63,445 bases of DNA from an uncultured Bacteroidales bacterium. Its GTDB lineage: Bacteria > Bacteroidota > Bacteroidia > Bacteroidales > JAAAOM01. Both the position numbers and the translations under genes were made by a program. Below the pieces are notes generated by a model. That model was given only the letters and a program-made list of their open reading frames with translations, did not search any database and was not told the origin of the DNA. The stretch lies in contig CAZZBU010000006.1 of the NCBI GenBank assembly GCA_964652315.1, positions 1 to 63,445 on the forward strand, in the 5' to 3' direction. The stretch's first letter is position 1, and every line of letters begins with the position of its first letter. Positions 1 to 33,760 of this stretch are shown in pieces.

Positions 1-87
1 GGGTGCTTTCAAACCTAAGTATTACCTAATTAAATAAACCTATACCTATATGTAAGAGAAGGGTATACTTTATTTATGAAAAAAGTA
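1..87 (-). ncRNA. Candidate sigma54-dependent sRNA with four UAGGU repeats (3' end outside the window)
   Basis: ACCTA on the plus strand at 13-17, 24-28, 38-42 and 44-48. No usable ORF in the window. Ends in GAAAGCACCC, possibly the first arm of a terminator. Confidence 0.4.
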
Positions 88-95
88 ACATTTTA

Positions 96-3728: not shown

Positions 3729-5153
3729 TTAACGCATGGTGTATATTCTGCCTGCATCCAATCGCAGGAAAATAAACAACAATGCTGTAAACGACCAAAG
3801 AGAGCTTCCTCCATAGCTAAAGAAAGGTAATGGAATGCCTATAACCGGGAACAACCCGATAGTCATTCCGATATTAATAAGAATGTGAAACAGGAATATG
3901 GATAATACTCCGTAGCCAAAAACACGGTTGAAGGTTGATTTTTGTCTTTCAGCAAGGTAAATTAATCGCAGGAGAAACAACATAAACAACAATATCACCA
4001 GGGAAGTGCCCATAAATCCCCATTCTTCACCCACGGTACAGAAGATAAAGTCCGTACTTTGTTCCGGTACAAATTTATATTTTGTCTGCGTTCCCTGTAA
4101 AAACCCTTTACCACTGAACCCTCCGGAGCCAATGGCAATTTTTGACTGCCGTACATTATAACCCGCTCCTTGTGGATCTTCTTCAATCCCTAACAACACG
4201 TTAATACGCATTTGTTGATGAGGCTCCAGCACTTTGTTAAATACCACATCAACTGAATAAGTGATGCCCAATGACACCACAAATAAACCAAGAATTAAGA
4301 GCCCGTGCCTGATTTTTTTTCGAAGGGAAAGAATAAAAAAGACCAATAAAGCCAGGGCTAAAGTAATCATTAAAATTATATAGGCTGAATAGCCAGCATT
4401 TAGCTTGGTATTTAAATATTTGGCTCCAAAGAAAAATGCTGCAAAGAATAAGCCGGCAAGGATGATTTGGGTATAACGTTTGTTTGTAACTGCAAGAATC
4501 AAAACCGCTCCAACAATAAGAATCAGGGTTACGGTAAAACTATCCAGGACCAAAGCCAGAATAGACAATATGGCAAGGTAAATTCCCACAATGGGTATAA
4601 CCGGAGACATTCCTTCGCGAAAGAGGACAACTATAAAAGCAAAATAAATAAGTACCGAACCCATATCAGGCTGAAGTGCGATTAACATGGCCGGCAGTGC
4701 AATAATCACCAGCATACGGAAAAACCATTCTCTTTTATACAGCTTAAAGTTGTAAGTACTCATTAAACGGGCCAGGGCCAGTGCAGTGGCAATTTTTGCG
4801 AATTCAGACGGTTGAATCTGTACGCTGCCAAAGGAAAACCAGGATTTTGCTCCGTTAATTTCTTTGCCAATGATTAAAACCAGGATAAGGCTCAGAATGA
4901 AAAATGCGTAGATAACATAAGCAAAAAATGAATAAAACTTTTCATCAATAATTAGCATAATTACGGCAATCGCTATAGCTGCTGTAATCCAGATAAGTTG
5001 TTTACCGTAGCGCTGGCTAACATCCAGGATGCTTTGATGCTCAACGTTGTATACTGCTGCATAAATATTTAACCATCCCAGGAAAACCAATACCAAGTAA
5101 AGCCCTACGGTTAACCAGTCAATATGTGCTAATATGTTACCTCGTTTTATCAA
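3729..5153 (-). CDS. rodA: Rod shape-determining protein RodA (SEDS family)
   Basis: IQPSEFAK, QPDMGS, GYNVRQSKIAIGSGG, PEQSTDFIF, SYGGSSL; directly downstream of mrdA. Confidence 0.95.
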   Translation of the reverse strand: MIKRGNILAHIDWLTVGLYLVLVFLGWLNIYAAVYNVEHQSILDVSQRYGKQLIWITAAIAIAVIMLIIDEKFYSFFAYVIYAFFILSLILVLIIGKEINGAKSWFSFGSVQIQPSEFAKIATALALARLMSTYNFKLYKREWFFRMLVIIALPAMLIALQPDMGSVLIYFAFIVVLFREGMSPVIPIVGIYLAILSILALVLDSFTVTLILIVGAVLILAVTNKRYTQIILAGLFFAAFFFGAKYLNTKLNAGYSAYIILMITLALALLVFFILSLRKKIRHGLLILGLFVVSLGITYSVDVVFNKVLEPHQQMRINVLLGIEEDPQGAGYNVRQSKIAIGSGGFSGKGFLQGTQTKYKFVPEQSTDFIFCTVGEEWGFMGTSLVILLFMLFLLRLIYLAERQKSTFNRVFGYGVLSIFLFHILINIGMTIGLFPVIGIPLPFFSYGGSSLWSFTALLFIFLRLDAGRIYTMR

Positions 5154-6965
5154 TTAATAGTCTATTGTGGCATTTAACATTAAATTTTCAACCCATTTCC
5201 TTGACACTGTGTCGGTCAGGTATTTTTCAATCATCAGACTGGCTATGGGTGCAGCATAAGTAGAACCCCACTTGCCATGTTCAACATAAACCGCTATCGC
5301 AATCTGCGGATTTTCCCTTGGAGCAAAAGCCGAAAATACCGAATGGTCTTCTCCATGTGGATTTTCAGCAGTTCCGGTTTTACCGCAAACAACAATATCA
5401 TTAATTTTTGCAATGCGTGAAGTGCTTCCTTCCCCTCCATTAACTGCCATTTCCATTCCATCCAAAACTACCGGAAAATGCGAAGAATCAATTGTAGTAA
5501 AATGGGGGGTTGTAAACTTCCGGCTAAGCGTATCAATCCCTTCGATTTTTTTAACTACATGAGGGGTGTAATAATACCCTTTGTTTGCCAGGGCTGCAGT
5601 CATATTAGCCAGTTGAAGCGGAGTAATGCCCAACTCTCCCTGCCCGATGGCCAGCGATATGATGGTGAGGGCTTTCCAGCGGCCTTCGCCATAATATCTG
5701 TCATAATAAGAGGTATTGGGTACATAACCGCTTAATTCATTTGGGAAGTCGCTACCCAATGGTCTGCCAAAGCCAAAAGAGAGAAGGTGATCACGCCAGT
5801 TGTTGAATGCCATAGGTACTGAAGGATAATCCCGGTCTTCGATGATGTTCCGGAAAATGTGACAGAAATAGGCATTGGATGATTTTTGAATGCCGCTTAC
5901 CATATCAACATACCCGTATACATGATCCTTCACTGTTACACCTCTGGCATAATAAGCCCCATCAACATAATATGTTGCTTTCGGATTTACCACGTTTTCC
6001 TGAAGGCCTATCAGGGCATTTATCATTTTAAAAGTAGAGCCGGGCGGATATTGCGCCATTAAAGCGCGGTTGAAAATCGGCTTTAGTGTATCGCTTTGCA
6101 GTTTTCGGTAGTTCTTGGTCCGTTCCCGGCCAACCAGAAGCGAGGGGTCATAATTTGGTGCTGTTACCATGGCCAGAATCTCTCCGGTTTGAGGTTCAAT
6201 AGCCACGATGCTGCCACGGAAGTCTTCCATCAGCTTTTCACCATAAGTCTGTAAGTCGGCATCAATCGTAAGGGTGAGGTTTTTCCCAACCACTGCCGGC
6301 TCATTATACCTGCCGCCTTCATATACTCCCTGCACCCTTCCGTGTACATCCACATTATAAATTTCACGTCCTTTTTCGCCGCGAAGGTATTCTTCATAGG
6401 TTTTTTCAATACCACTGATTCCAATATAGTCGCCCATGCTGTAATAATCATTTTCCTCTATGATTTTATCATCTACTTCACCTACATATCCGATGAGGTG
6501 GGCAGCAATGTCGCTCGAGTATTTTCGTAATGTCCTTGGTTGAACATAAAAGCCCGGAAAACGGTAAAGTTTTTCCTGAAGTTCGGCATAGGTTTCAGCA
6601 GACACCTGTTTGATAAACGGTTCTCTCCGGTAGCGCGGCATAAACGAGCGTTCGATGCCGTTAACCAGAAATTCCCTGTCGATATTTAAAATGGTACAAA
6701 GTTCGGCTGTATCAAATTCCTGCAATTGATAAGGAGCAATCACTAAATCATAGGCAGCCTGATTGTATACCAGCAATTCACCATCGCGGTCAAAAAATAA
6801 GCCGCGGGCCGGAAAAAGTGTAACCACCCGCCTGGAATTGTTTTCAGCTGAAAGGCGATAGGATTCATCGATCACCTGAAGGTAAAATAACTTCAGAATG
6901 AATACCAGGGCGATCATAATTACGATTCCTGCAATAGTATATTTTCTTACCGAGAATTGCTCCAT
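5154..6965 (-). CDS. mrdA: Penicillin-binding protein 2
   Basis: PPGSTFK (SxxK), SSN (SxN) and GKTGTAE (KTG); operon context. Confidence 0.95.
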   Translation of the reverse strand: MEQFSVRKYTIAGIVIMIALVFILKLFYLQVIDESYRLSAENNSRRVVTLFPARGLFFDRDGELLVYNQAAYDLVIAPYQLQEFDTAELCTILNIDREFLVNGIERSFMPRYRREPFIKQVSAETYAELQEKLYRFPGFYVQPRTLRKYSSDIAAHLIGYVGEVDDKIIEENDYYSMGDYIGISGIEKTYEEYLRGEKGREIYNVDVHGRVQGVYEGGRYNEPAVVGKNLTLTIDADLQTYGEKLMEDFRGSIVAIEPQTGEILAMVTAPNYDPSLLVGRERTKNYRKLQSDTLKPIFNRALMAQYPPGSTFKMINALIGLQENVVNPKATYYVDGAYYARGVTVKDHVYGYVDMVSGIQKSSNAYFCHIFRNIIEDRDYPSVPMAFNNWRDHLLSFGFGRPLGSDFPNELSGYVPNTSYYDRYYGEGRWKALTIISLAIGQGELGITPLQLANMTAALANKGYYYTPHVVKKIEGIDTLSRKFTTPHFTTIDSSHFPVVLDGMEMAVNGGEGSTSRIAKINDIVVCGKTGTAENPHGEDHSVFSAFAPRENPQIAIAVYVEHGKWGSTYAAPIASLMIEKYLTDTVSRKWVENLMLNATIDY

Positions 6966-25857: not shown

Positions 25858-26049
25858 GTAAATCTGGCGAAAAAAAATTACGGGGTTGGTTATTTTAAAT
25901 AAAACCAAATAGCATTAACACAAGTGTCATGTCATTTTTACTTTTGCGGTTAAACCACAGTCAAGGTTTTCAATTATTGTCAGTGTATGCCCCGTCAATG
26001 GTCAACGACTATGATGGTGGCTAAGCGACATTAGAGTCTTGACACGACA

Positions 26050-26421
26050 CTAGTATTTCTCCAAAACACTGGATAATAGTTCTTTATCAATCTCCTCTTT
26101 AATGATGTATGATCTGGCACCTGCTTCAATCATCTGAATAACATATTTCATATCTGAATGAAAGGACAGGGCGATAATGATTAAATTCCGGTAGGTTTCA
26201 GAGGCAATTTTGGTGGTTTCAATGCCATTCATAACAGGCATGTCAATATCCATAAATACAATGTCTATGACTTTTTTTGAGAGAATATCCAGGCATTCTT
26301 TTCCATTGCAGGCGGTATCGATGCTTTCAACGGTTTCATCAAAAGTATCGGTGATTAAAAATTTCAAGGCACTTAAAAATTGTACATGATCATCTACAAG
26401 TAATATTCGCAATTTTTTCAC
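26050..26421 (-). CDS. Stand-alone response regulator receiver (NarL-like REC)
   Basis: LVDDH, DIVFMDIDMPVMNG, SYIIKE; GTG start; no output domain. Confidence 0.88.
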   Translation of the reverse strand: MKKLRILLVDDHVQFLSALKFLITDTFDETVESIDTACNGKECLDILSKKVIDIVFMDIDMPVMNGIETTKIASETYRNLIIIALSFHSDMKYVIQMIEAGARSYIIKEEIDKELLSSVLEKY

Positions 26422-26537: not shown

Positions 26538-26545
26538 CAAATGTA
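26538..26545 (-). promoter_or_regulatory. sigmaA -7 element upstream of the receiver gene
   Basis: TACATTTG on the minus strand, downstream of the terminator at 26649-26683. Confidence 0.4.
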
Positions 26546-26648
26546 CGATATGCAAAAAAGAAATGGTTGAGAAGATATACGCATATTGCGATGTACTGTC
26601 ACGAATGTGTTAGTGGGTATTTACCGTCATTTTTAAAAAAAAGCATAC

Positions 26649-26683
26649 AAAAACAGGGTAACGGACAGGCGTCCGTCACCCTG
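26649..26683 (-). terminator. Intrinsic terminator
   Basis: CAGGGTGACGGAC-GCCT-GTCCGTTACCCTG 13-bp stem (one G.U pair) followed by TTTTTG on the minus strand. Confidence 0.85.
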
Positions 26684-26750
26684 CAAACCAAACCACACTA
26701 AAACAACCCTAAATCAAACCTATTAAGTAAACTTAAATATCGAAAAAATG
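26649..26750 (-). ncRNA. Candidate sRNA with GGUUUG repeats ending in a strong terminator
   Basis: Three GGTTTG and one GGGTTG within 26684-26720 on the minus strand; no ORF; own terminator. Confidence 0.5.
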
Positions 26751-26784
26751 TTCAAAAATTTTCTGATATTTTTTATTTTTTTTC

Positions 26785-26832
26785 AAAAAAAGAGGTTTCT
26801 TCTGGAGAGGATTGTCATCTACCCGAAACCTC
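26785..26832 (-). terminator. Intrinsic terminator (switchable)
   Basis: GAGGTTTC...GAAACCTC stem followed by T7 on the minus strand. Confidence 0.7.
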
Positions 26833-27024
26833 ATCAATGTTTTACAGATTAAACTCAACATCTTTTCCTACCACACAAAATCCGTTAATCTGTAAAAGTC
26901 AAATCCCCTCATAAACTAAAACCACGCATTAAATCATTTCAGACATTTATTTTCCCCGCCTAGAAGAAACCTTTTTGTGTTTACAAAATAATTTTGTATA
27001 CTTTCTATCAATTCAAATAACCTG
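26785..27024 (-). ncRNA. Candidate structured RNA/attenuator with two alternative folds
   Basis: TATATTTG -7 element at 27028-27035; helices 26962-72/26793-803 (11 bp), 26902-10/26805-13 (9 bp) and 26885-97/26840-52 (13 bp); terminator at the 3' end. Confidence 0.5.
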
Positions 27025-27181
27025 ATACAAATATACGGGGTAAAATGCCTTGTTTCTTGAGCACTACCACGCAAAATTAGTAAATTTTTACTCAAAATAA
27101 AATGTGTAGAAATAATTAATCATTACGTATCAGATTTTGGGTGTTTTCCGACATGAGGTTGAGTTTATAATATCCAGTTAA

Positions 27182-27817
27182 TCAAACGGATACAAGATTG
27201 TTTTTGATAGCATATACAACCAGGCTAATGGAATTGTTACTTTCTGTTTTCATCAGCAGATTGGATCGGTGGCGTTCTACCGTCCGTTGTGAAATATGCA
27301 GCTCATCCGAAATCTGACTGTTCGAATATCCTTTGCAAATCAGGGCTAGAATTTCCTGTTCGCGCCTTGTTAAAGTAACATTTTGATTTTCTGATTTATG
27401 CTTTATCAGGCTTAGCAATAATTCCTGTGAAAAATATGTGCCCCCTCTGAGAATGTAGCGAATGCCGTTTTTTAATTCTTCGTTATCAGCGTCTTTTAGA
27501 ATAAACCCTTTTACTCCAAGTTCAATCATGGTATTGTAATATGCATCTTCGCCAAACATTGACAGGACAAGGATGTTTAAATCAGGTTTTTTTTCGAGTG
27601 CAATGCGGGTAGCCTCCACCCCATTCATTACAGGCATGCTGATGTCCATCAGAACCAAATCAGGGTGTATGACTTCAAGCAATTCCAGGAATTCTTTTCC
27701 GTTTGATGCTTCAGCCACAACCTCAATATTTTCCATTTCATTGATTATGAATTTCAGCCCGTTACGAAACAGGTTATGATCATCCACAATGACAATTTTA
27801 TGGTTTTCTTTTTCCAT
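27182..27817 (-). CDS. NarL/LuxR-family response regulator
   Basis: VDDHNLFR, DLVLMDISMP, GFILKD, LTRREQEIL...TVERHRSNL HTH. ATG at 27817 preferred over TTG at 27835. Confidence 0.95.
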   Translation of the reverse strand: MEKENHKIVIVDDHNLFRNGLKFIINEMENIEVVAEASNGKEFLELLEVIHPDLVLMDISMPVMNGVEATRIALEKKPDLNILVLSMFGEDAYYNTMIELGVKGFILKDADNEELKNGIRYILRGGTYFSQELLLSLIKHKSENQNVTLTRREQEILALICKGYSNSQISDELHISQRTVERHRSNLLMKTESNNSISLVVYAIKNNLVSV

Positions 27818-27856
27818 ATTATAAAGATAATTCAACTTTTTTGAACCCCCAAATTG

Positions 27857-30800
27857 TTATTCTTCTGACAGCGGAACTGCCGGAGCTTCAATTTCTATTA
27901 AAATGCCCTTCTCCGGGTGTTTAAATGCAAAATTCCCGTTTAATGATTTAATCCGGCTCATGAGATTAAACAATCCCATGCCTTTTTTCTCCACTGCTTC
28001 GAAATCAAATCCTATGCCATTATCCCTGTAGGTAAGGTATAGGTTAGCGCCATCGTACTCAAGGTTTATTTTTATTTCACTGGCATTCGCATGTTTCAGG
28101 GTATTGTTTATGAGTTCTTTAATAATTCGATAGAAGGTTGTTTCCAGCATGTTGTTGAACCGCGTGTCGGCGATGCTGGTATTAAAATCTATCGATATGT
28201 GGTGGGTAAGTTTTTCAATAAAATTATCAATGGCCGATACAATGCCATAATTTGTTAGAATATGCGGACTCAGATCGTTTGAGATTTGTTTTGTGGTTTG
28301 AATGGCTTCCCGTAATATTTCGTTAACCTGCTCGATAATATATTTTTGTTTTTCAGGATTATCGGTATCAACAAATGAATTCATATACATCCGGATGCTG
28401 GATAATAGCGGACCAAGATCATCATGCAGGTTTTTTGCAAAGTTTTCGCGTTCTTTTTCCTCGGTTTTGATGATTGCATCCAACACTTTATGCTCTGTTA
28501 ATTTGCGAAGAGTAATGTCCCTGATTATGGTTAAGATAGCTTTTTTATCTTCATAATTTATGGATTTGCTGTGAAATTCAACAGGACGGTGATGATGTTC
28601 ATCCTTTTTATAGTCAAGTTCAAGGGCAGGAGCAGTGCCTTTTTTTTCAACCTCACTAAAATGTTTTTCAATTTCTTCCTGCTGGTGTTTTTCAAAAAAT
28701 GAATAAATGGAACTTCCGATAATGTCTTTTCGGCTACAATTGAGATATTCCAATAGCCGGTGATTTGCCTCGAAACAAAAGCCTTGAACATCAGATATAA
28801 GAATAGCATCGCTGCTGTTATTAAAAATATTCCGGAATTTTCTTTCGTTTTCAAGAATGGTTTTTTCAGCCTTTTCGCGTTCGGATATGTCTCTGATGGC
28901 TGTAACCCTGGCCTGTTTTCCTTCATAAGGGATATTTCGTGCAAGGACTTCAACCGGAAAAGTTGTTCCATCCTTTCTGCGGGCAAGATGTACATAAGGG
29001 CCCTTAAAGCCTTCCTTTATGGCTTTTTTCACCATATCTTGTGACTCGGGCGCTACCATTTCAATGGCATTTTTACCGATTATCTCATCAACATCGTAAC
29101 CCAACATCCAGGCAATTTGAGAATTCACTGTCAGTATTTTTCCGTCAATTGAGATAACAATTCCTTCAAAAGCTGATTCAGCGAGATTTCTGAAACGTTC
29201 TTCACTTTCTTTTAATGCTTTTTCAGCCTGCTTCCGCTCGGAGATATCTTTTACTGTTCCTTTTATGCTGGTAAGGTTACCCTTTGAATCAAATTCTCCC
29301 CGGCCGATATTTTCCAGGTAAAGCACTTTACCTGCTTGGGTCAGAATCCGGTAATCAAATTTTACAATGTCTTTTGAAACTTGATGTAGTTGAAGTTTTT
29401 CCCGCACAAGAGACTGATCATCGGGGTAAACGATTTTTTTTATGAATTTTTCCAGTCCGATGGGATTTGCGTAGGTTCCATCGCCAAGAATATTAAAGAA
29501 TTCATCTGACCAGTGGATCACATTTTGATGAATATCAATCCACCAGTTGCTTAGTTTAGCAAGTTTTTGTGCCTCTTTGAGGTTTCTCTCGCTCTGTTTT
29601 AGCGCTTTTTCAGATTTTTTACGTTCGGTGATATCGAAAATTGCACCGATTAGGCCAATGATGTTTTCTTCAGCATCAGTATAGGCCGCTTTATGATATA
29701 TCACATCGCGGATCGAACCATCGGCGTACTGAAGTGAGGCCTCCTCTATCCGGTTGCCACCAAATTCTATTAACTGAAGGTCGGATTGAATATCTTTTTC
29801 AAAATCTGTATTTGGAAACAAATCGCGCACAGTTTTTCCATGAATATCCCCCCGTTTGAATCCGGTTGAAGCTTCAAATGCAGAGTTACAACCTACAAAT
29901 TCAGTGTTCACATTTTTGTAATAAACAGGTATAGGGATGGTTTCGAGCAGGGTCATCAGAAAGTCGCGGTGCTCTTTTTCTCTGCGTTCGGCTTTTTTTC
30001 TTTCAGATATGTCACGAACAATGGCCTGAATAAAGATCTCATTATTAAAAATAAGGGAGTTGAGTACAACTTCGGCATCAAAGGGTTTGCCTGATTTGGT
30101 AATATGCTGCCATTCAAATGAATGTGTATTGCCTTGCAAACTGGATTTGATATATTCCACGGCCTTTGTTTTGGATTTTTCACCATTGGGTTGAGTATCC
30201 GGTGAAAAATCAAAGGGTGTTTTACCTATAATATCTTCATAACTGCAATTAAAAATTTCAAGGGTTTTTTTATTGCAACTGATAAATTTATCTTTTTTCA
30301 TCAGGAAAATAGCGTCGTTGGCGTTTTCAAATACAAGCCGGTATTTCTTTTCACTGTCAATCAGGGCCTGTTCGTTCTCTTTCAGTTCGGTGATATCGGT
30401 AATAACCCCTATGGATTTTACCGGAGAGGTATTTTCATCACGTTCAAAGATTTGCTCGCGAATCAATACCCAAAATACCTGATTGTTTTTACCGACCAGA
30501 CGAATCTCGTTTGTTATGATCTGATTTCCTTTTGCTTTCAGTAATTTTTCCTGGTGCTGCTGGCATATAAGCTTGTCTTTATGGAAAACCAACAGGTCTA
30601 TCACATTATTGGCTTTTTCCAGTTCTTTATCTGTGTATCCGGTTAACTCAGTCAGGCGGTTATTGAAAAAGTTGAACCGGTTGGATTCGAGGTCCAGCAC
30701 AAAAATAACATCAGGCGTGGCATTGTTAATGGCTTCCAGAAAGCTGTTTGACCTGACCAGCTCCTGTTCAAATTCTTTTTTATCGGTAATATCCCGGCCA

Positions 30801-33760
30801 ACACCTATAATTTCAATCACTTCGTTTTTTTCATTCAGGATAGCCCTGTCGCTCCAGGCAAGCCATCGCCAACCATTTACTGTAAGTGCCCGTTGCTCAA
30901 CATAAGCCGTGTAGGGAGGTTTGTAAAGCTTCATCATGGCGTCGGCTGTGGGTTTTTGATCATCTACATGAACAAATGGCATAAAGGAACTACCCAGGAG
31001 ATCAGCTTCTGATTTGCCAAATGCCCTGCAATAGGATGGACTTACAAAGAGGTATCGGCCTTCTTTGTCCACTTTAACCACAAGTTCCGACTGCAATTCT
31101 ACAATCAACCGGTATTTCTCCTCACTTTCTTCAAGTTTTTGCTGTGCCTCGCGTTCCTCTGTAATATCACGGAAAAGGGCCTGAAGGCGACCATCAGCCA
31201 GTTGTTTGCTATTCATCTGAATGATGATGGTTTTACCGTCTTTACGATTAAGCCGCCGTTCAGTGGTTACCACCTCACCTCTCAGTACTTTTTTATATTG
31301 AAGGGGCCTGGTACCCAACTCATCTTTGGAGAAAAGCATAGAAATATTACCATTGACCAATTCTTCACGGCTGTATCCGGTAAGGTGGCACATGGTTGTG
31401 TTGGTATCCAGAATTGTTCCGTCCTGCTTTCCAACCAGGATACCTTCGCCAGCCTGTTCAAATAAAGTCCGGAATTGCAATTCACTTTTTTTGATTTTTT
31501 CCTGGTTCGAAAGCCTTTCGGTTATATCCAGGAACAAAACAGTAACGCTTCCCTGTGAGCTTTGGAAAGCATGGACTTCATACGAGCTGTTGAACCGTTT
31601 ATCGGCATAATTAAATTGTTCGGAATGCCATAATCCCCCATCCCTGGCAATGTTGCGATAAATCTCCGGGATTTCGGTCTGCGCAAGGTTGGGAAAAGCT
31701 TTTTCAATGGGCTTCTGTAAAAGAGACCGATGCTTTATGCCTATTATTTCATCTGCAGCATGATTGGTCATTGTAAGGATAAGTTCATTCTCTTCGTTTA
31801 ACTCGTACATGTAAAGTCCCATAGGTGATGAGTCAACAATGCTTTTGAATCTTTCCCTGCTTATGCGCAGAGATTCTTCAGCAAGTTTCAAAGGAGTAAT
31901 GTCGCGGGCAATAGAAAACACCTTTTTTTCCTCCTTAAGTGGATAAGCGTTCCATGACAACCAGTGATAATCACCGTTCTTATGACGGTACCGGTTATGG
32001 AGGTTATGAATGGTTTTTCCACGGGAAAGATCAACCGCAGTTTGCAAAGTAGCTTTTAAATCATCAGGATGAACAATGTCTTGTATTTTTATCGTAACAA
32101 ATTCTTCCGGAGTATACCCTAAGATGGATTCAATAGAAGGACTGACCTGCTTGAAAGGATTATTAAAATCGGAAATCACCAGAATGTCTGCGGAGTGATT
32201 AAAAAACATTTTTCTTTCCAATTCGGCTCTTTTGGGTCCGGTTATATCTATTACCAGGGCATCCCATAATAATGTCTGGTCAGGCTGTCTTTTTGGAAGC
32301 GCTTTGATGCGAAGGTATTTTAATTGATTTTTATCTTTTCTGGTCTTGAGACGCACCTCACAATCCAGTACATTGCCTGTCTCAATGGATTTTTTCCGGA
32401 GGTTTTTAAGATTTTCAATGTCTTTCTGCAGGCAATTGCCATACATATTCCAGGAATTGGTATATACATCTTCTATGGGAACTTCAAATAATTCTTCGAG
32501 CTTAGTACTGGCGTATATAACTTTGTCCTGCCCACTGGAGGTAGTAAGGATTTGCAATACCGCCCCTCCTGGTAAATTATTGCTGAGGTTTTTTATGCGT
32601 TGTTCGCTTGCTTTTAACTCATTGGTTTTAAGCTCAACCAACTCTTCAAGGTGGTTTCGGTATTGGTCTAATTCATTTTCGGTTTTCTTTTTCTCCGTAA
32701 TATCCCTTGAAATGGTACCGGTTAACACCTGTTGGTTAATCTTAATCGGGAAAGAGGTACTCTGGATGGTTTTGGTTTTTCCTGAGGGGGTATTTATGCT
32801 GTGTTCCCATGTATTTACGACAGGTTCTGTTCCTGAAGACCTTGATTTTAGAAAATCAGATTTAAGTTTTGCTGAAAATCCAGTATCCTTTGTTTCTTGA
32901 AAAAGGAGCACAGACTCTAAATCCCATACAAATTTTGTTATCGCCTCTTTACCGGAAATCTCGGTAATGTTTTCTAATGCCGGATTCCATTCAATGATTT
33001 TGCCATCCTGATCAACAATGGAAATACCATCGGCCGACTGCCTGATAAAGTTTAAAAGTTTTGTTTCGCTGGTTTTAAGTGCCAGCTCAACAGTTTTTCG
33101 TTCTTCAATCTCGGCTTTCAATTTTTCAGTAAGTGTAATCAGGTTGGTGTTTTTCTCAAAAAGCTCTTCGTTGGTTGCTTTGAGTTCCTCATTCACCAAT
33201 TGCAATTCGTCCGTTCGCTCCTTTACCAGAATTTCAAGCTGGTTACGGTATTCCTGAAGTTTTTCCTCAGTGCTTTTTCGTATTTCTATTTCGTCGAGCA
33301 GTTTTTTATTTGCTGATTTTAAGGCACTATTTGTTTCTTTCAATTCTTCAACAAGCGCAACATTTTCATGCCTCAGATAATACGCTTCAAAGGCATTGTC
33401 CAGGGCATTTTTGATCTCGTCCCTGTTCCATGGTTTGGTCAGATAACTGTAAACCCTGCCTTTGTTTATGGCATCGATGACGGATTCCATATCGGCATAG
33501 GCTGTAATTATAATTCTTATAATGTTGGGATGTGTCTGTGCAATCTCTGATAAAAACTCTGTACCTGATTTCTCAGGCATGCGTTGATCAGATATAAGCA
33601 CCTGAATATCATGGTTGTCGATAATATCCCTGGCTGTACTAATATCTTTGCTTAGATATATAGTATAATCCTTTCGGAACGTATACAAAAACCCATCAAG
33701 ATTTTCCTGCTCGTCATCAATATAAAGAATGCACTTTTGCTCTTTTGTCAGTTTCCCCAT
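27857..33760 (-). CDS. Cytoplasmic hybrid sensor kinase: REC, about 12 PAS/PAC repeats, HisKA_3 and HATPase
   Basis: N-terminal IDDE/SDQRMP/KPW; repeated SE.R/K-F/Y-R...RDIT PAS-PAC units; AKNLHDDLG H-box; ELINNTLKHA, DNGIGF, GMGL; no TM seen. Confidence 0.92.
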   Translation of the reverse strand: MGKLTKEQKCILYIDDEQENLDGFLYTFRKDYTIYLSKDISTARDIIDNHDIQVLISDQRMPEKSGTEFLSEIAQTHPNIIRIIITAYADMESVIDAINKGRVYSYLTKPWNRDEIKNALDNAFEAYYLRHENVALVEELKETNSALKSANKKLLDEIEIRKSTEEKLQEYRNQLEILVKERTDELQLVNEELKATNEELFEKNTNLITLTEKLKAEIEERKTVELALKTSETKLLNFIRQSADGISIVDQDGKIIEWNPALENITEISGKEAITKFVWDLESVLLFQETKDTGFSAKLKSDFLKSRSSGTEPVVNTWEHSINTPSGKTKTIQSTSFPIKINQQVLTGTISRDITEKKKTENELDQYRNHLEELVELKTNELKASEQRIKNLSNNLPGGAVLQILTTSSGQDKVIYASTKLEELFEVPIEDVYTNSWNMYGNCLQKDIENLKNLRKKSIETGNVLDCEVRLKTRKDKNQLKYLRIKALPKRQPDQTLLWDALVIDITGPKRAELERKMFFNHSADILVISDFNNPFKQVSPSIESILGYTPEEFVTIKIQDIVHPDDLKATLQTAVDLSRGKTIHNLHNRYRHKNGDYHWLSWNAYPLKEEKKVFSIARDITPLKLAEESLRISRERFKSIVDSSPMGLYMYELNEENELILTMTNHAADEIIGIKHRSLLQKPIEKAFPNLAQTEIPEIYRNIARDGGLWHSEQFNYADKRFNSSYEVHAFQSSQGSVTVLFLDITERLSNQEKIKKSELQFRTLFEQAGEGILVGKQDGTILDTNTTMCHLTGYSREELVNGNISMLFSKDELGTRPLQYKKVLRGEVVTTERRLNRKDGKTIIIQMNSKQLADGRLQALFRDITEEREAQQKLEESEEKYRLIVELQSELVVKVDKEGRYLFVSPSYCRAFGKSEADLLGSSFMPFVHVDDQKPTADAMMKLYKPPYTAYVEQRALTVNGWRWLAWSDRAILNEKNEVIEIIGVGRDITDKKEFEQELVRSNSFLEAINNATPDVIFVLDLESNRFNFFNNRLTELTGYTDKELEKANNVIDLLVFHKDKLICQQHQEKLLKAKGNQIITNEIRLVGKNNQVFWVLIREQIFERDENTSPVKSIGVITDITELKENEQALIDSEKKYRLVFENANDAIFLMKKDKFISCNKKTLEIFNCSYEDIIGKTPFDFSPDTQPNGEKSKTKAVEYIKSSLQGNTHSFEWQHITKSGKPFDAEVVLNSLIFNNEIFIQAIVRDISERKKAERREKEHRDFLMTLLETIPIPVYYKNVNTEFVGCNSAFEASTGFKRGDIHGKTVRDLFPNTDFEKDIQSDLQLIEFGGNRIEEASLQYADGSIRDVIYHKAAYTDAEENIIGLIGAIFDITERKKSEKALKQSERNLKEAQKLAKLSNWWIDIHQNVIHWSDEFFNILGDGTYANPIGLEKFIKKIVYPDDQSLVREKLQLHQVSKDIVKFDYRILTQAGKVLYLENIGRGEFDSKGNLTSIKGTVKDISERKQAEKALKESEERFRNLAESAFEGIVISIDGKILTVNSQIAWMLGYDVDEIIGKNAIEMVAPESQDMVKKAIKEGFKGPYVHLARRKDGTTFPVEVLARNIPYEGKQARVTAIRDISEREKAEKTILENERKFRNIFNNSSDAILISDVQGFCFEANHRLLEYLNCSRKDIIGSSIYSFFEKHQQEEIEKHFSEVEKKGTAPALELDYKKDEHHHRPVEFHSKSINYEDKKAILTIIRDITLRKLTEHKVLDAIIKTEEKERENFAKNLHDDLGPLLSSIRMYMNSFVDTDNPEKQKYIIEQVNEILREAIQTTKQISNDLSPHILTNYGIVSAIDNFIEKLTHHISIDFNTSIADTRFNNMLETTFYRIIKELINNTLKHANASEIKINLEYDGANLYLTYRDNGIGFDFEAVEKKGMGLFNLMSRIKSLNGNFAFKHPEKGILIEIEAPAVPLSEE

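What the first reader, a model, noticed from the sequence alone, without database searches (positions are those of the whole stretch)
26785..27035. About 190-240-nt RNA with mutually exclusive terminator and three-helix folds
Seen on the minus strand, downstream of a TATATTTG -7 element. Fold A: terminator GAGGTTTC (26832-25) pairs with GAAACCTC (26799-92), then U7. Fold B: P1 AGGTTTCTTCT (26972-62) with AGAAGAAACCT (26803-793), 11 bp perfect; P2 GAGGGGATT (26910-02) with AATCCTCTC (26813-05), 9 bp with one G.U; P3 TTTTACAGATTAA/TTAATCTGTAAAA, 13 bp perfect with a 32-nt loop. P1 and P2 consume the terminator's 3' arm and loop. GGU motifs (GUGGUU, GUGUGGUAGG, GAGGUUU, GGGUAG) fall in the unpaired parts of fold B. 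Inference: an attenuator or riboswitch-like element controlling read-through into the repeat unit, or a structured sRNA. A site resembling the 201-216 palindrome (TGTCGGAAAACACCCA, 11/16 identical, 27138-27153) lies about 110 nt upstream of the promoter.
Basis: partly seen in the sequence, partly recalled or inferred. Interest (0 to 1): 0.78.

Follow-up and report, generated by a model that had tools for sequence, protein, structure and literature searches.

The report
Stem-closed domain of regulator-linked RNA
This stretch is most likely the folded front half of an undescribed non-coding RNA that sits beside a signalling-protein gene in an uncultured Bacteroidales family; one long closing helix is kept in relatives, but the proposed two-fold "switch" is not.

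Summary
Only P1 (11 bp) and P3 (13 bp) exceed chance. The 8-bp "terminator" stem (fold A) is the length that shuffled sequence gives more than half the time.

Fold A is about 9 kcal/mol worse than the P1 fold and has no weight in the ensemble. Two of its G-C pairs are lost in a ~93%-identical relative. It uses the same 3' arm beside the U7 run as P1, so neither fold is an anti-terminator.

Related loci in three other lineages share an almost gaplessly alignable promoter: a regulator site and a TAnnTTTG box. They also share a closing helix of 18-23 bp with partly different sequence, a fast-changing interior, then a 96%-conserved G/U-rich unit with a terminator, and an orphan receiver gene. Only this lineage has a U-run after P1.

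No Rfam family matches, the genome has no CsrA, and no RNA-seq data could be found.

Verdict: probably a real, new, family-restricted structured RNA domain, not a riboswitch-like switch. Moderate interest.

The parts
27120..27153 (-). Upstream regulator site TGTCGGAAAACACCCAAAATCTGATACGTAATG. Probably bound by a NarL/LuxR-type response regulator (inferred).
   Evidence: Invariant G-CGG..AC..A...T..GT columns in the promoter alignment of 6 loci. The same kind of site stands before the receiver gene in five loci and in G003.
27029..27036 (-). Bacteroidota -7 promoter box TATATTTG. Predicted transcription start near 27022.
   Evidence: TA..TTTGTA is invariant at the same column in all four lineages. 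No RNA data were available.
26973..27022 (-). 5' leader of about 50 nt, A/U-rich with small local hairpins.
   Evidence: Folds. In full-length folds it can pair with the G/U-rich unit; this is a prediction only.
26953..26972 (-).
   Evidence: Pair probabilities 0.9-1.0. Homologous arms in lineages A, B and C.
26899..26912 (-). Interior motif AUGAGGGGAUUUGA. It is the only interior block with counterparts in the other lineages (RRGGNUUUGA).
   Evidence: Motif listing. P2 forms only transiently in growing-chain folds and has probability 0 at equilibrium.
26840..26897 (-). P3: a perfect 13-bp hairpin with a 32-nt loop, specific to this lineage.
   Evidence: pair I21. A stem this long occurred in 2 of 500 shuffles. 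It is kept in X7 through A-U to G-U at 26893. No counterpart in lineages A, B or C.
26825..26832 (-). GAGGUUUC, the 5' arm of the proposed local terminator (fold A). Judged a chance duplicate of the P1 arm.
   Evidence: 8-bp stems are common in shuffles. Probability 0 and 8.8 kcal/mol worse. G26832 and G26829 are A in X7.
26793..26811 (-). 3' arm of the closing helix, UCCUCUCCAGAAGAAACCU. It is the only C-rich patch of the RNA.
   Evidence: In X7, 26801 A>G gives U-G and the pair is kept. In X6, 26802 G>A gives C.A, one inner pair lost.
26785..26791 (-). U7 run one base after the closing helix. Possible intrinsic termination point, present only in this lineage.
   Evidence: The other lineages have AAAAAAAG, AAAUAUG or UAUACAAAA at this place. 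The simple terminator scan did not call it because the loop is too long.
26649..26724 (-). Downstream G/U-rich unit (UAGGUUUGAUUUAGGGUUGUUUUAGUGUGGUUUGGUUUG) with a 14-bp GC-rich terminator. In relatives it is part of the same RNA locus.
   Evidence: 96% identical in G001 and G002. Found in five loci of family f1 only, out of 401 genomes sampled from the order. Terminator.
26590..26629 (-). Second copy of the regulator site (TGACGGTAAATACCCAC...). It is followed by the -7 box TACATTTG (26538-26545) of the receiver gene.
26050..26421 (-). Orphan single-domain receiver gene (123 aa) that follows the RNA in every locus.
   Evidence: Pfam Response_reg, 1.3e-23. Synteny.
27182..27835 (-). NarL/LuxR-type response regulator directly upstream. 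Candidate regulator of the RNA promoter (inferred).
   Evidence: Pfam Response_reg plus GerE. The same order, kinase then regulator then RNA then receiver, is seen in G001.

Best explanation
The stretch is the 5' structured domain of an undescribed non-coding RNA, which may also serve as a long leader.

Transcription would start at a conserved, regulator-controlled Bacteroidota promoter: the -7 box at 27029-27036, with TGTCGG...TACGTA sites upstream. In sister lineages the transcript runs about 400 nt, through a G/U-rich unit and its strong terminator, and ends just before an orphan receiver gene.

The one conserved structural feature here is a composite closing helix. It pairs 26953-26972 with 26793-26811 as 11 + 2 + 5 bp, that is P1 plus an extension. 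It shuts a fast-evolving interior of about 140 nt into a separate domain; that interior includes the lineage-specific hairpin P3 and one conserved RRGGNUUUGA block.

Only in this lineage does a U7 run follow the 3' arm. The closing helix therefore doubles as a terminator-like hairpin. It would release an RNA of about 235 nt, or lower transcription into the unit. There is no ligand- or factor-driven choice between two folds, and fold A is a chance 8-bp match.

Shown: the helices, their excess over chance, promoter orthology, a closing helix in every lineage, and the loss of fold A in a near relative. Inferred: that the RNA is made, that the neighbouring NarL-type regulator drives it, that U7 terminates, and what the domain is for. 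My guess for the last is a stabilising or protein-binding module of a two-component-system-induced RNA.
For: - **Helices beyond chance.** P1 and P3 exceed chance. P1 has pair probabilities 0.9-1.0, and the minimum-energy fold is -52.9 kcal/mol.
- **Promoter orthology.** 149 columns from the regulator site to the -7 box align almost without gaps in lineages W, A, B and C, with 32 invariant columns.
- **Closing helix in every lineage.** W: AAGGUUUCUUCUAGGCGGGGA / UCCUCUCCAGAAGAAACCUC. A: UAUUUUCUUCGUGGAG..GAAGUUAA / UUAACUUCUUCCACGAAAGAAAAU. B: GGUUUCUAUAGCAGAGAGGAAGAU / AUCUUCCUCCGCUUAGAAACU. C: GAGGAGAGCAUGGCCUUG / CAAGGCC..GCUCCCUC. UUUCU...AGAAA is shared, with GG/CC in W against UU/AA in A.
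- **Duplex strength.** The 5'-3' duplex is stronger than shuffles in 7 of 7 RNAs, z from -1.7 to -5.8.
- **Strand.** The sense strand folds better than the antisense strand in 10 of 10 RNAs, because of G.U pairs.
- **Pair counts in lineage B.** 20 pairs, 94% of cells paired, 2 double changes and 6 one-sided changes.
- **Near relatives.** The X7 contig keeps P1 (U-A to U-G) and P3 (A-U to G-U), and loses fold A.
- **Context.** The RNA is single copy in its genome. Synteny with the receiver gene holds in all loci.
Against: - No transcript data exist.
- Covariation is thin. Within lineage B the shuffle control is not significant: 56-102 of 500 shuffles reach the observed values.
- The between-lineage comparison rests on anchoring by short shared words, not on a column alignment.
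- RNAalifold on lineage B predicts only the inner part of P1. It pairs the outer 5' arm with the G/U-rich unit instead.
- One population variant (X6, 26802) breaks a P1 pair.
- Five of the 16 differences in the X7 contig lie near its ends, including the P1 5' arm, and were not shown.
- A helix enclosing 158 nt is an unusual terminator, and the terminator scan did not call it.
- The interior evolves almost like a spacer, so the domain may have little function of its own.
Confidence: 0.55

Rival explanations
1. First reader's model. This is a riboswitch-like or attenuator element. The local hairpin fold A (26832-26825 with 26799-26792, plus U7) terminates. The three-helix fold B (P1, P2, P3) prevents termination and allows read-through into the G/U-rich unit.
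For: The two folds cannot coexist, because they share the 3' arm. P2 does form transiently in growing-chain folds at chain ends 26805-26800. In lineages B and C there is no recognisable promoter between the unit's terminator and the receiver gene. Read-through control somewhere in the locus is therefore plausible.
Against: Both folds place a helix directly before U7, so fold B is not an anti-terminator. Fold A is 8.8 kcal/mol worse, has probability 0, and is never the best fold of the growing chain. An 8-bp stem is at chance level. Two of its G-C pairs are lost in X7. U7 is absent in lineages A, B and C. There is no conserved aptamer-like core and no Rfam match.
Confidence: 0.07
2. There is no functional RNA structure. 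This is a fast-evolving AT-rich spacer between a conserved promoter and the conserved G/U-rich unit. The helices are by-products of composition: purine-rich at the 5' side, with one pyrimidine patch at the 3' side.
For: The interior cannot be aligned between lineages. It is the least conserved part within lineage B: 88-92% identity against 92-97% in the flanks. The overall fold z-score is only -2.1. The covariation statistics are not significant.
Against: Two perfect stems of 11 and 13 bp never occurred together in 500 shuffles. A closing helix of -25 to -31 kcal/mol recurs at the same relative place in four lineages, with different sequences and G.U-type changes.
Confidence: 0.15
3. The region is, or was, a small-protein gene or a dual-function RNA. 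Lineage B keeps an open frame of 57-69 codons (VKEGFEI...KEGFEIK) inside the P1-closed domain. The window would hold a decayed or shortened version, for example MRGFDFYRLTDFVW or the 42-codon frame 26736-26861.
For: The frame stays open in three diverged lineage B sequences despite indels. Gene callers call it. Third codon positions change somewhat more often: 6 of 13, 10 of 20 and 33 of 69 substitutions. The GGNUUUGA block translates to GF(E/D) in several lineages.
Against: Synonymous to non-synonymous codon changes are 4:8 and 4:11, about what neutral change gives. Only 4 near-identical protein clusters exist among 5.8 billion. There is no Pfam match. The window's frame does not match the lineage B protein (E = 0.2) and runs through U7/A8 low-complexity sequence. 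Lineages A and C have no such frame.
Confidence: 0.08
4. The inverted repeats act at the DNA level, as a protein-binding palindrome, an invertible segment, or a miniature mobile element flanked by the P1 arms.
For: The 11-bp and 13-bp repeats are perfect in this genome. A segment of about 160 bp flanked by inverted repeats downstream of a promoter resembles Bacteroidales invertons (from general knowledge).
Against: It is single copy in the genome. No inversion joints appear in six metagenome runs. The changes seen in relatives are G.U-type, which keep pairing only in the sense RNA and would be mismatches in DNA. The same position is occupied in four lineages by different sequences.
Confidence: 0.05
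5. The whole RNA, P1 domain plus G/U-rich unit, is a long regulatory leader of the receiver gene. An RNA-binding protein would control termination by recognising the periodic UAG/GUUUG tract. The P1 domain would be an accessory platform.
For: In lineages B and C the receiver gene starts 46-90 nt after the unit's terminator, with no TAnnTTTG box in between. The unit carries UAG-N7/8-UAG-N7/8-UAG and 5-nt-periodic GUUUG words directly before the terminator. The genome encodes two RRM_1 proteins.
Against: In the window and in lineage A a second regulator site and a -7 box stand between the terminator and the receiver gene. No candidate protein is linked to the locus. The genome has no CsrA.
Confidence: 0.1

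Closest known systems
Bacteroides seed-plus-terminator sRNAs (GibS and the FopS family; PMC11697453)
   Same: It is transcribed from a TAnnTTTG-type promoter, lies between genes, ends in a Rho-independent terminator, and belongs to a lineage-restricted multicopy family. [quoted passage not shown] The neighbouring G/U-rich unit has that layout, and the genome has two RRM_1 proteins.
   Different: The stretch under study is a stem-closed domain of about 180 nt placed in front of the seed-like unit. GibS and FopS have no such domain. No Rfam model matches, FopS and GibS included. Here the RNA is always followed by an orphan receiver gene.
Terminator/anti-terminator riboswitches and attenuators (e.g. 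T-box, the TRAP-controlled trp leader)
   Same: It is a long structured RNA upstream of a gene, with U-runs after helices and alternative pairings available for the same 3' segment.
   Different: There is no conserved sensor core. The alternative fold uses the same 3' arm, so it does not remove the terminator hairpin. Neither the local hairpin nor the U-run is conserved.
Csr/Rsm-type sponge RNAs (CsrB, RsmY/Z) under GacS/GacA-type two-component control
   Same: A two-component system sits next to a non-coding RNA with repeated short motifs, and a conserved upstream activating site lies far from the promoter core.
   Different: The genome has no CsrA gene. There is no repeated GGA-in-loop motif. 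GGU is not enriched in this stretch. The interior differs in composition between lineages.
Stem-closed variable or expansion domains of larger structured RNAs (general architecture)
   Same: A conserved closing helix surrounds an interior that changes quickly in length and sequence between lineages: 140-230 nt. The paralogous loci (G000 C42, G002 C348) have the leader and the unit without this domain.
   Different: Those cases are parts of RNAs with known catalytic or scaffold cores. Here no such core is known.

Membership tests
Riboswitch / transcription attenuator | Sensor (aptamer or binding) core conserved in sequence and structure among orthologues | tested here: not met
   The interior cannot be aligned between lineages; only the P1 arms and one block of about 10 nt recur. 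No blastn match to 26785-27035 in 60 relatives.
Riboswitch / transcription attenuator | An anti-terminator that sequesters part of the terminator, so that no hairpin abuts the U-run | tested here: not met
   Fold A and fold B both pair 26793-26799 directly before U7. Fold B leaves an 18-bp helix one base from the U-run.
Riboswitch / transcription attenuator | Terminator hairpin and U-run conserved in orthologues | tested here: not met
   U7 is present only in this lineage. Fold A loses two G-C pairs in the 93%-identical X7 contig.
Riboswitch / transcription attenuator | Match to a curated RNA family | tested here: not met
   No Rfam hit at gathering score in the window or in 7 orthologous loci. 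Only chance-level hits at E of 1.5 or more.
Riboswitch / transcription attenuator | Ligand- or factor-dependent change in termination | not testable with these tools
   Needs in vitro or in vivo transcription assays.
Intrinsic (Rho-independent) terminator | Stable G+C-containing stem ending 0-2 nt before a run of at least 5 U | tested here: met
   P1 plus its extension, 18 bp, ends at 26793; then C, then U7 at 26791-26785.
Intrinsic (Rho-independent) terminator | Compact hairpin (short loop) able to form in the exit channel | tested here: not met
   P1 encloses 158 nt, so the consensus scan did not call it. The compact alternative, fold A with a 25-nt loop, is weak, at chance level and not conserved.
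Intrinsic (Rho-independent) terminator | Observed 3' ends at the U-run | not testable with these tools
   No RNA runs hold the stretch.
Csr/Rsm-type sponge RNA | The partner protein CsrA/RsmA is encoded in the genome | tested here: not met
   PF02599 found nothing in the 99%-complete genome; the controls were positive.
Csr/Rsm-type sponge RNA | Many copies of one short motif in single-stranded loops | tested here: not met
   GGU 6 observed against 4.3 expected (P = 0.24). There is a single RRGGNUUUGA block in the interior.
Bacteroidota sRNA of GibS/FopS type | TAnnTTTG (-7) promoter | tested here: met
   TATATTTG at 27029-27036; TA..TTTGTA is invariant in 6 loci.
Bacteroidota sRNA of GibS/FopS type | Single-stranded 5' seed followed directly by a terminator hairpin; sequence match to the family | tested here: not met
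   The stretch is a closed multi-helix domain. No Rfam match. Only the neighbouring unit has the seed-plus-terminator layout.
Small protein-coding gene | Open frame conserved among orthologues, with purifying selection | tested here: not met
   A frame is present only in lineage B, with roughly neutral substitution ratios. The window's frames are 5-42 codons and unrelated to it (E = 0.2). No Pfam match.
Inverton / miniature mobile element | Multiple copies, or both orientations, present in DNA | tested here: not met
   Single copy. No joints in the contigs of four metagenome runs, though contigs can miss rare variants.

The most novel reading that the evidence does not exclude
The P1-closed domain and the G/U-rich unit together form a new class of two-component-system-controlled regulatory RNA in Bacteroidales. 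A NarL-type regulator would switch on a leader/sRNA of about 400 nt. Its periodic UAG/GUUUG tract next to a terminator would be read by an oligomeric or RRM-type RNA-binding protein, setting expression of the orphan receiver. That would be a feedback loop built from RNA, functionally parallel to Gac/Rsm or TRAP systems but unrelated to them. In the window's lineage the added U7 would split the RNA into two products.
Probability: 0.1. Interest if true: 0.7.

Novelty: new member of a known kind. Interest (0 to 1): 0.38.

Why it matters
Post-transcriptional control in Bacteroidota is poorly mapped. These bacteria lack Hfq and CsrA, and only a few sRNA families are known, all from gut Bacteroides.

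This locus would add an RNA that is not in Rfam, restricted to one family, and tied to a two-component system. It comes with a conserved multi-site promoter, a clear domain structure and a fixed gene partner, an orphan receiver. That gives concrete, testable parts: a regulator site, a closing helix, and a seed-like unit.

For the scan, the main value is a correction. A pair of mutually exclusive helices is not evidence of a switch when both use the same arm next to the U-run.

Tried and rejected
- **Rfam.** Searched at gathering score and at a permissive E-value on the window, and at gathering score on 7 orthologous loci. Nothing found.
- **blastn of 26640-27180 against 60 relatives.** The stretch itself finds nothing. 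Hits to 26741-26791 are AT-rich low-complexity noise.
- **Pattern scans of genome and metagenome collections with the unit's core.** Most hits are an unrelated conserved Pseudomonas element. Two are GGTTTAG-type tandem arrays in a Paludibacteraceae MAG. All metagenome hits were Pseudomonas.
- **RNA evidence.** No RNA runs hold the stretch.
- **More sequences of the window's own lineage.** Receiver homologues at 89-90% identity sit on contigs too short to reach the stretch. Regulator homologues at 83-85% have no RNA or receiver downstream. Only the X7 contig helped.
- **Loose genome scan for the TGTCGG...AC site.** Not enriched over a reversed-pattern control (103 against 182). Only the copies at the two paralogous loci and one other regulator locus look real.
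- **CsrA sponge idea.** Rejected, because the genome has no CsrA.
- **TRAP, HutP and RRM family searches in the genome.** RRM proteins were found with a regular-expression scan plus Pfam instead.
- **Homology between the window's 42-codon frame and the lineage B small ORF.** Not significant.
- **Cross-lineage column alignment for formal covariation.** MAFFT aligns only the unit and roughly the 3' arms, so no R-scape-like test was possible.

Full report
**Setting**

The window is a whole 63-kb contig of a 99%-complete MAG from microbial-mat metagenomes. The stretch lies on the minus strand in a 760-nt gap. Upstream are a 1967-aa multi-PAS histidine kinase (27857-33760) and a NarL/LuxR-type response regulator (27182-27835). 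Downstream are a 123-aa single-domain receiver (26050-26421) and cydAB.

**Check of the observation**

In 500 dinucleotide shuffles of 26785-27035:
- a perfect stem of 11 bp or more appeared 7 times;
- a perfect stem of 13 bp or more appeared twice;
- two stems of 11 bp or more never appeared together;
- a perfect 8-bp stem appeared in more than half.

So P1 (11 bp) and P3 (13 bp) exceed chance. The fold A stem (8 bp) does not.

The 243-nt RNA folds at -55.1 kcal/mol, z = -2.1.

**Energetics of the two folds**

For the 238-nt RNA running from 27022 to 26785:

| Structure | Energy (kcal/mol) |
|---|---|
| Minimum-energy fold (contains P1 and P3) | -52.9 |
| Fold A enforced | -44.1 |

Pair probabilities are 0.9-1.0 for P1, about 1 for the P3 core, and 0 for both P2 and fold A.

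P2 loses because its 3' arm (AAUCCUCUC) pairs better with GG.GGGGA, which lies directly next to the P1 5' arm. This extends P1 to 11 + 2 + 5 bp.

In folds of the growing chain, P3 forms first. P2 appears only while the chain ends between 26805 and 26800. P1 plus its extension replaces it once 26793 is made. Fold A is never the best fold.

Both fold A and fold B place a helix directly before U7, because both use 26793-26799. Fold B therefore cannot act as an anti-terminator.

**Near relatives**

Contigs from run X7 include a 230-nt piece covering 26743-26974 at about 93% identity. Mapped on the RNA:

| Position (RNA change) | Element | Effect |
|---|---|---|
| 26801 A>G | P1 | U-A becomes U-G; pair kept |
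| 26893 A>G | P3 | A-U becomes G-U; pair kept |
| 26813 A>U | P2 (end pair) | pair broken; the P1 extension is untouched |
| 26832 and 26829, both G>A | fold A | two G-C pairs become A.C |

With these changes the local hairpin no longer forms.

An inner helix of the minimum-energy fold (26936 with 26829) is also lost. A population variant in X6 (26802 G>A) breaks one inner P1 pair.

Five of the 16 differences in X7 lie near the contig ends and were not listed. The P1 5' arm of X7 is therefore unknown.

**Orthologous loci**

blastn finds no relative of 26785-27035. The G/U-rich unit 60 nt downstream (26677-26724) is 96% identical in two other genera of the same family. In a sample of 401 genomes of the order, it occurs only in that family.

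Using the unit and the receiver protein as handles, I collected related loci:
- **Lineage A:** G001 and L079.
- **Lineage B:** G002, L087, L089, L090, L082 and L083.
- **Lineage C:** L085.
- **Shorter paralogous loci:** G000 C42 and G002 C348.

The 149 columns from the upstream TGTCGG...TACGTA site to the -7 box align almost without gaps across W, A, B and C, where W is the window's own RNA. There are 32 invariant columns, including TA..TTTGTA. This is the best available evidence that a regulated transcript starts near 27022.

From that start, every lineage has the same layout:
1. a leader of 45-70 nt;
2. a purine-rich 5' arm;
3. an interior of 140-230 nt that cannot be aligned between lineages;
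4. a pyrimidine-rich 3' arm, the only C-rich patch in an RNA with 7-12% C;
5. a spacer of 75-95 nt;
6. the unit;
7. a strong terminator.

The arms pair at -25 to -31 kcal/mol in all ten RNAs. W, A and B share UUUCU...AGAAA, with GG/CC in W against UU/AA in A.

Within lineage B there is one A-U to G-C change and several U-A to U-G changes. 94% of cells are paired, against 43-50% when the partner columns are slid.

The 5'-3' duplex beats shuffles in 7 of 7 RNAs, z from -1.7 to -5.8. The sense strand always folds better than the antisense strand, which argues for RNA-level pairing rather than DNA-level pairing.

Two weaknesses remain:
- The within-lineage shuffle control is not significant.
- RNAalifold supports only the inner half of P1 in lineage B. 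It pairs the outer 5' arm with the unit instead.

The U-run after the 3' arm exists only in the window's lineage. P3 has no counterpart elsewhere. The paralogous loci have the leader and the unit without the closed domain. The domain therefore behaves like an insertion into a simpler RNA.

**Coding potential**

Lineage B keeps an open frame of 57-69 codons inside the domain, VKEGFEI...KEGFEIK.
- Substitutions lean only slightly towards third positions.
- Synonymous to non-synonymous codon changes are 4:8 and 4:11.
- The frame region is less conserved than its non-coding flanks.
- Only four near-identical clusters exist in the protein collection.
- Neither this frame nor the window's 42-codon frame has a Pfam match.
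- The two frames are not significantly alike (E = 0.2).

I treat the window's stretch as non-coding. The lineage B frame stays an open question.

**Other readings tested**

- No Rfam family matches in the window or in the orthologues.
- The genome has no CsrA.
- GGU is not enriched in the stretch.
- The stretch is single copy, and no inversion joints appear in the metagenome contigs.
- The genome has two RRM_1 proteins. This is the protein family that binds GibS and FopS sRNAs in Bacteroides (PMC11697453). A link to this locus is speculation.

**Conclusion**

The stretch is best read as the stem-closed 5' domain of a new, family-restricted, regulator-linked non-coding RNA or leader. P1, with its extension, is the real conserved helix. 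P3 is real but specific to this lineage. P2 is transient at most. Fold A is chance.

In this lineage the added U7 probably makes P1 a partial terminator. That step is inferred.

The riboswitch-like switch is not supported.

Noticed in passing
window 27120-27153 and 26590-26629; also G000 C42 near 16336 and 16035; L092 (G003) about 1960-2000: A conserved site, TGTCGG-N4-(T/C)AC(G/C)..-N8-10-T(A/G)CGTA, stands both upstream of the RNA promoter and upstream of the receiver gene. In G003 it is a clear palindrome, TACGCAT-N6-ATGCGTA. It looks like the operator of a NarL/LuxR-type regulator. Further TGNGTA blocks are conserved between it and the -7 box.
   Followed up: partly
window 26649-26724; L035, L042, L055, L059, L079, L082, L083, L085: The G/U-rich unit is always followed by a paralogue of the same orphan receiver gene. 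It carries UAG-N7/8-UAG-N7/8-UAG and 5-nt-periodic GUUUG words directly before a covarying terminator. In lineages B and C there is no TAnnTTTG box between that terminator and the receiver start codon (46-90 nt), so the receiver may depend on read-through.
   Followed up: partly
L087 1639-1812; L083 2060-2230; L082 about 2090-2280; L089 790-993; L090 218-391: An open frame of 57-69 codons lies inside the stem-closed domain of lineage B, with KEGFEI at both ends and a variable charged middle. It stays open despite indels, but its substitution ratios are near neutral.
   Followed up: partly
window 25945-26010 (minus strand), and at least 12 other contigs of the genome (e.g. C1, C3, C12, C17, C21, C38, C62, C92, C123, C194, C231): A multicopy element of about 60 nt, TTGACCACTGACGGGGCCTACCCTGCCAATGGTTGAAAACCTTGGCAGTGGTTCAACCGCAA, with an internal hairpin (REP- or MITE-like). 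One copy lies between the receiver gene and cydA.
   Followed up: no
window 1-90 (minus strand): The UAGGU-repeat RNA at the contig edge ends with CUUAGGUUUGAAAGCACCC. It shares the word UAGGUUUGA with the start of the G/U-rich unit at 26716-26724. The two may belong to one motif family.
   Followed up: no
L036-L041, L045, L047-L054, L056-L058, L060-L077: A conserved Pseudomonas intergenic element (…GACTTTAGGGTTGTTTCAGTGTGGCGGGCTAACCGTTATACTTGCGCCCGCC…) shares a 20-mer with the unit by chance. It appears unrelated.
   Followed up: no
L044 about 4900-5050; L046 about 6000-6150 (Paludibacteraceae reindeer MAG): Long tandem arrays of GGTTTAG/GTTGTTTAG-like 7-9-mers resemble the unit's words and also the plant-type telomere repeat. 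Their origin is unclear.
   Followed up: no
L086 2315-2501; L097-L100: Some relatives have kinase, regulator and receiver with only a 186-nt gap, a regulator site and no RNA (L086). The closest regulator homologues, at 83-85% identity, have neither the RNA nor the receiver downstream. The RNA module therefore seems to be a late addition within one family.
   Followed up: partly
G000 contigs C98 (about 783, minus) and C262 (about 1631, minus): Two small RRM_1 proteins (83 and 101 aa) are encoded in the genome. There is no CsrA.
   Followed up: yes
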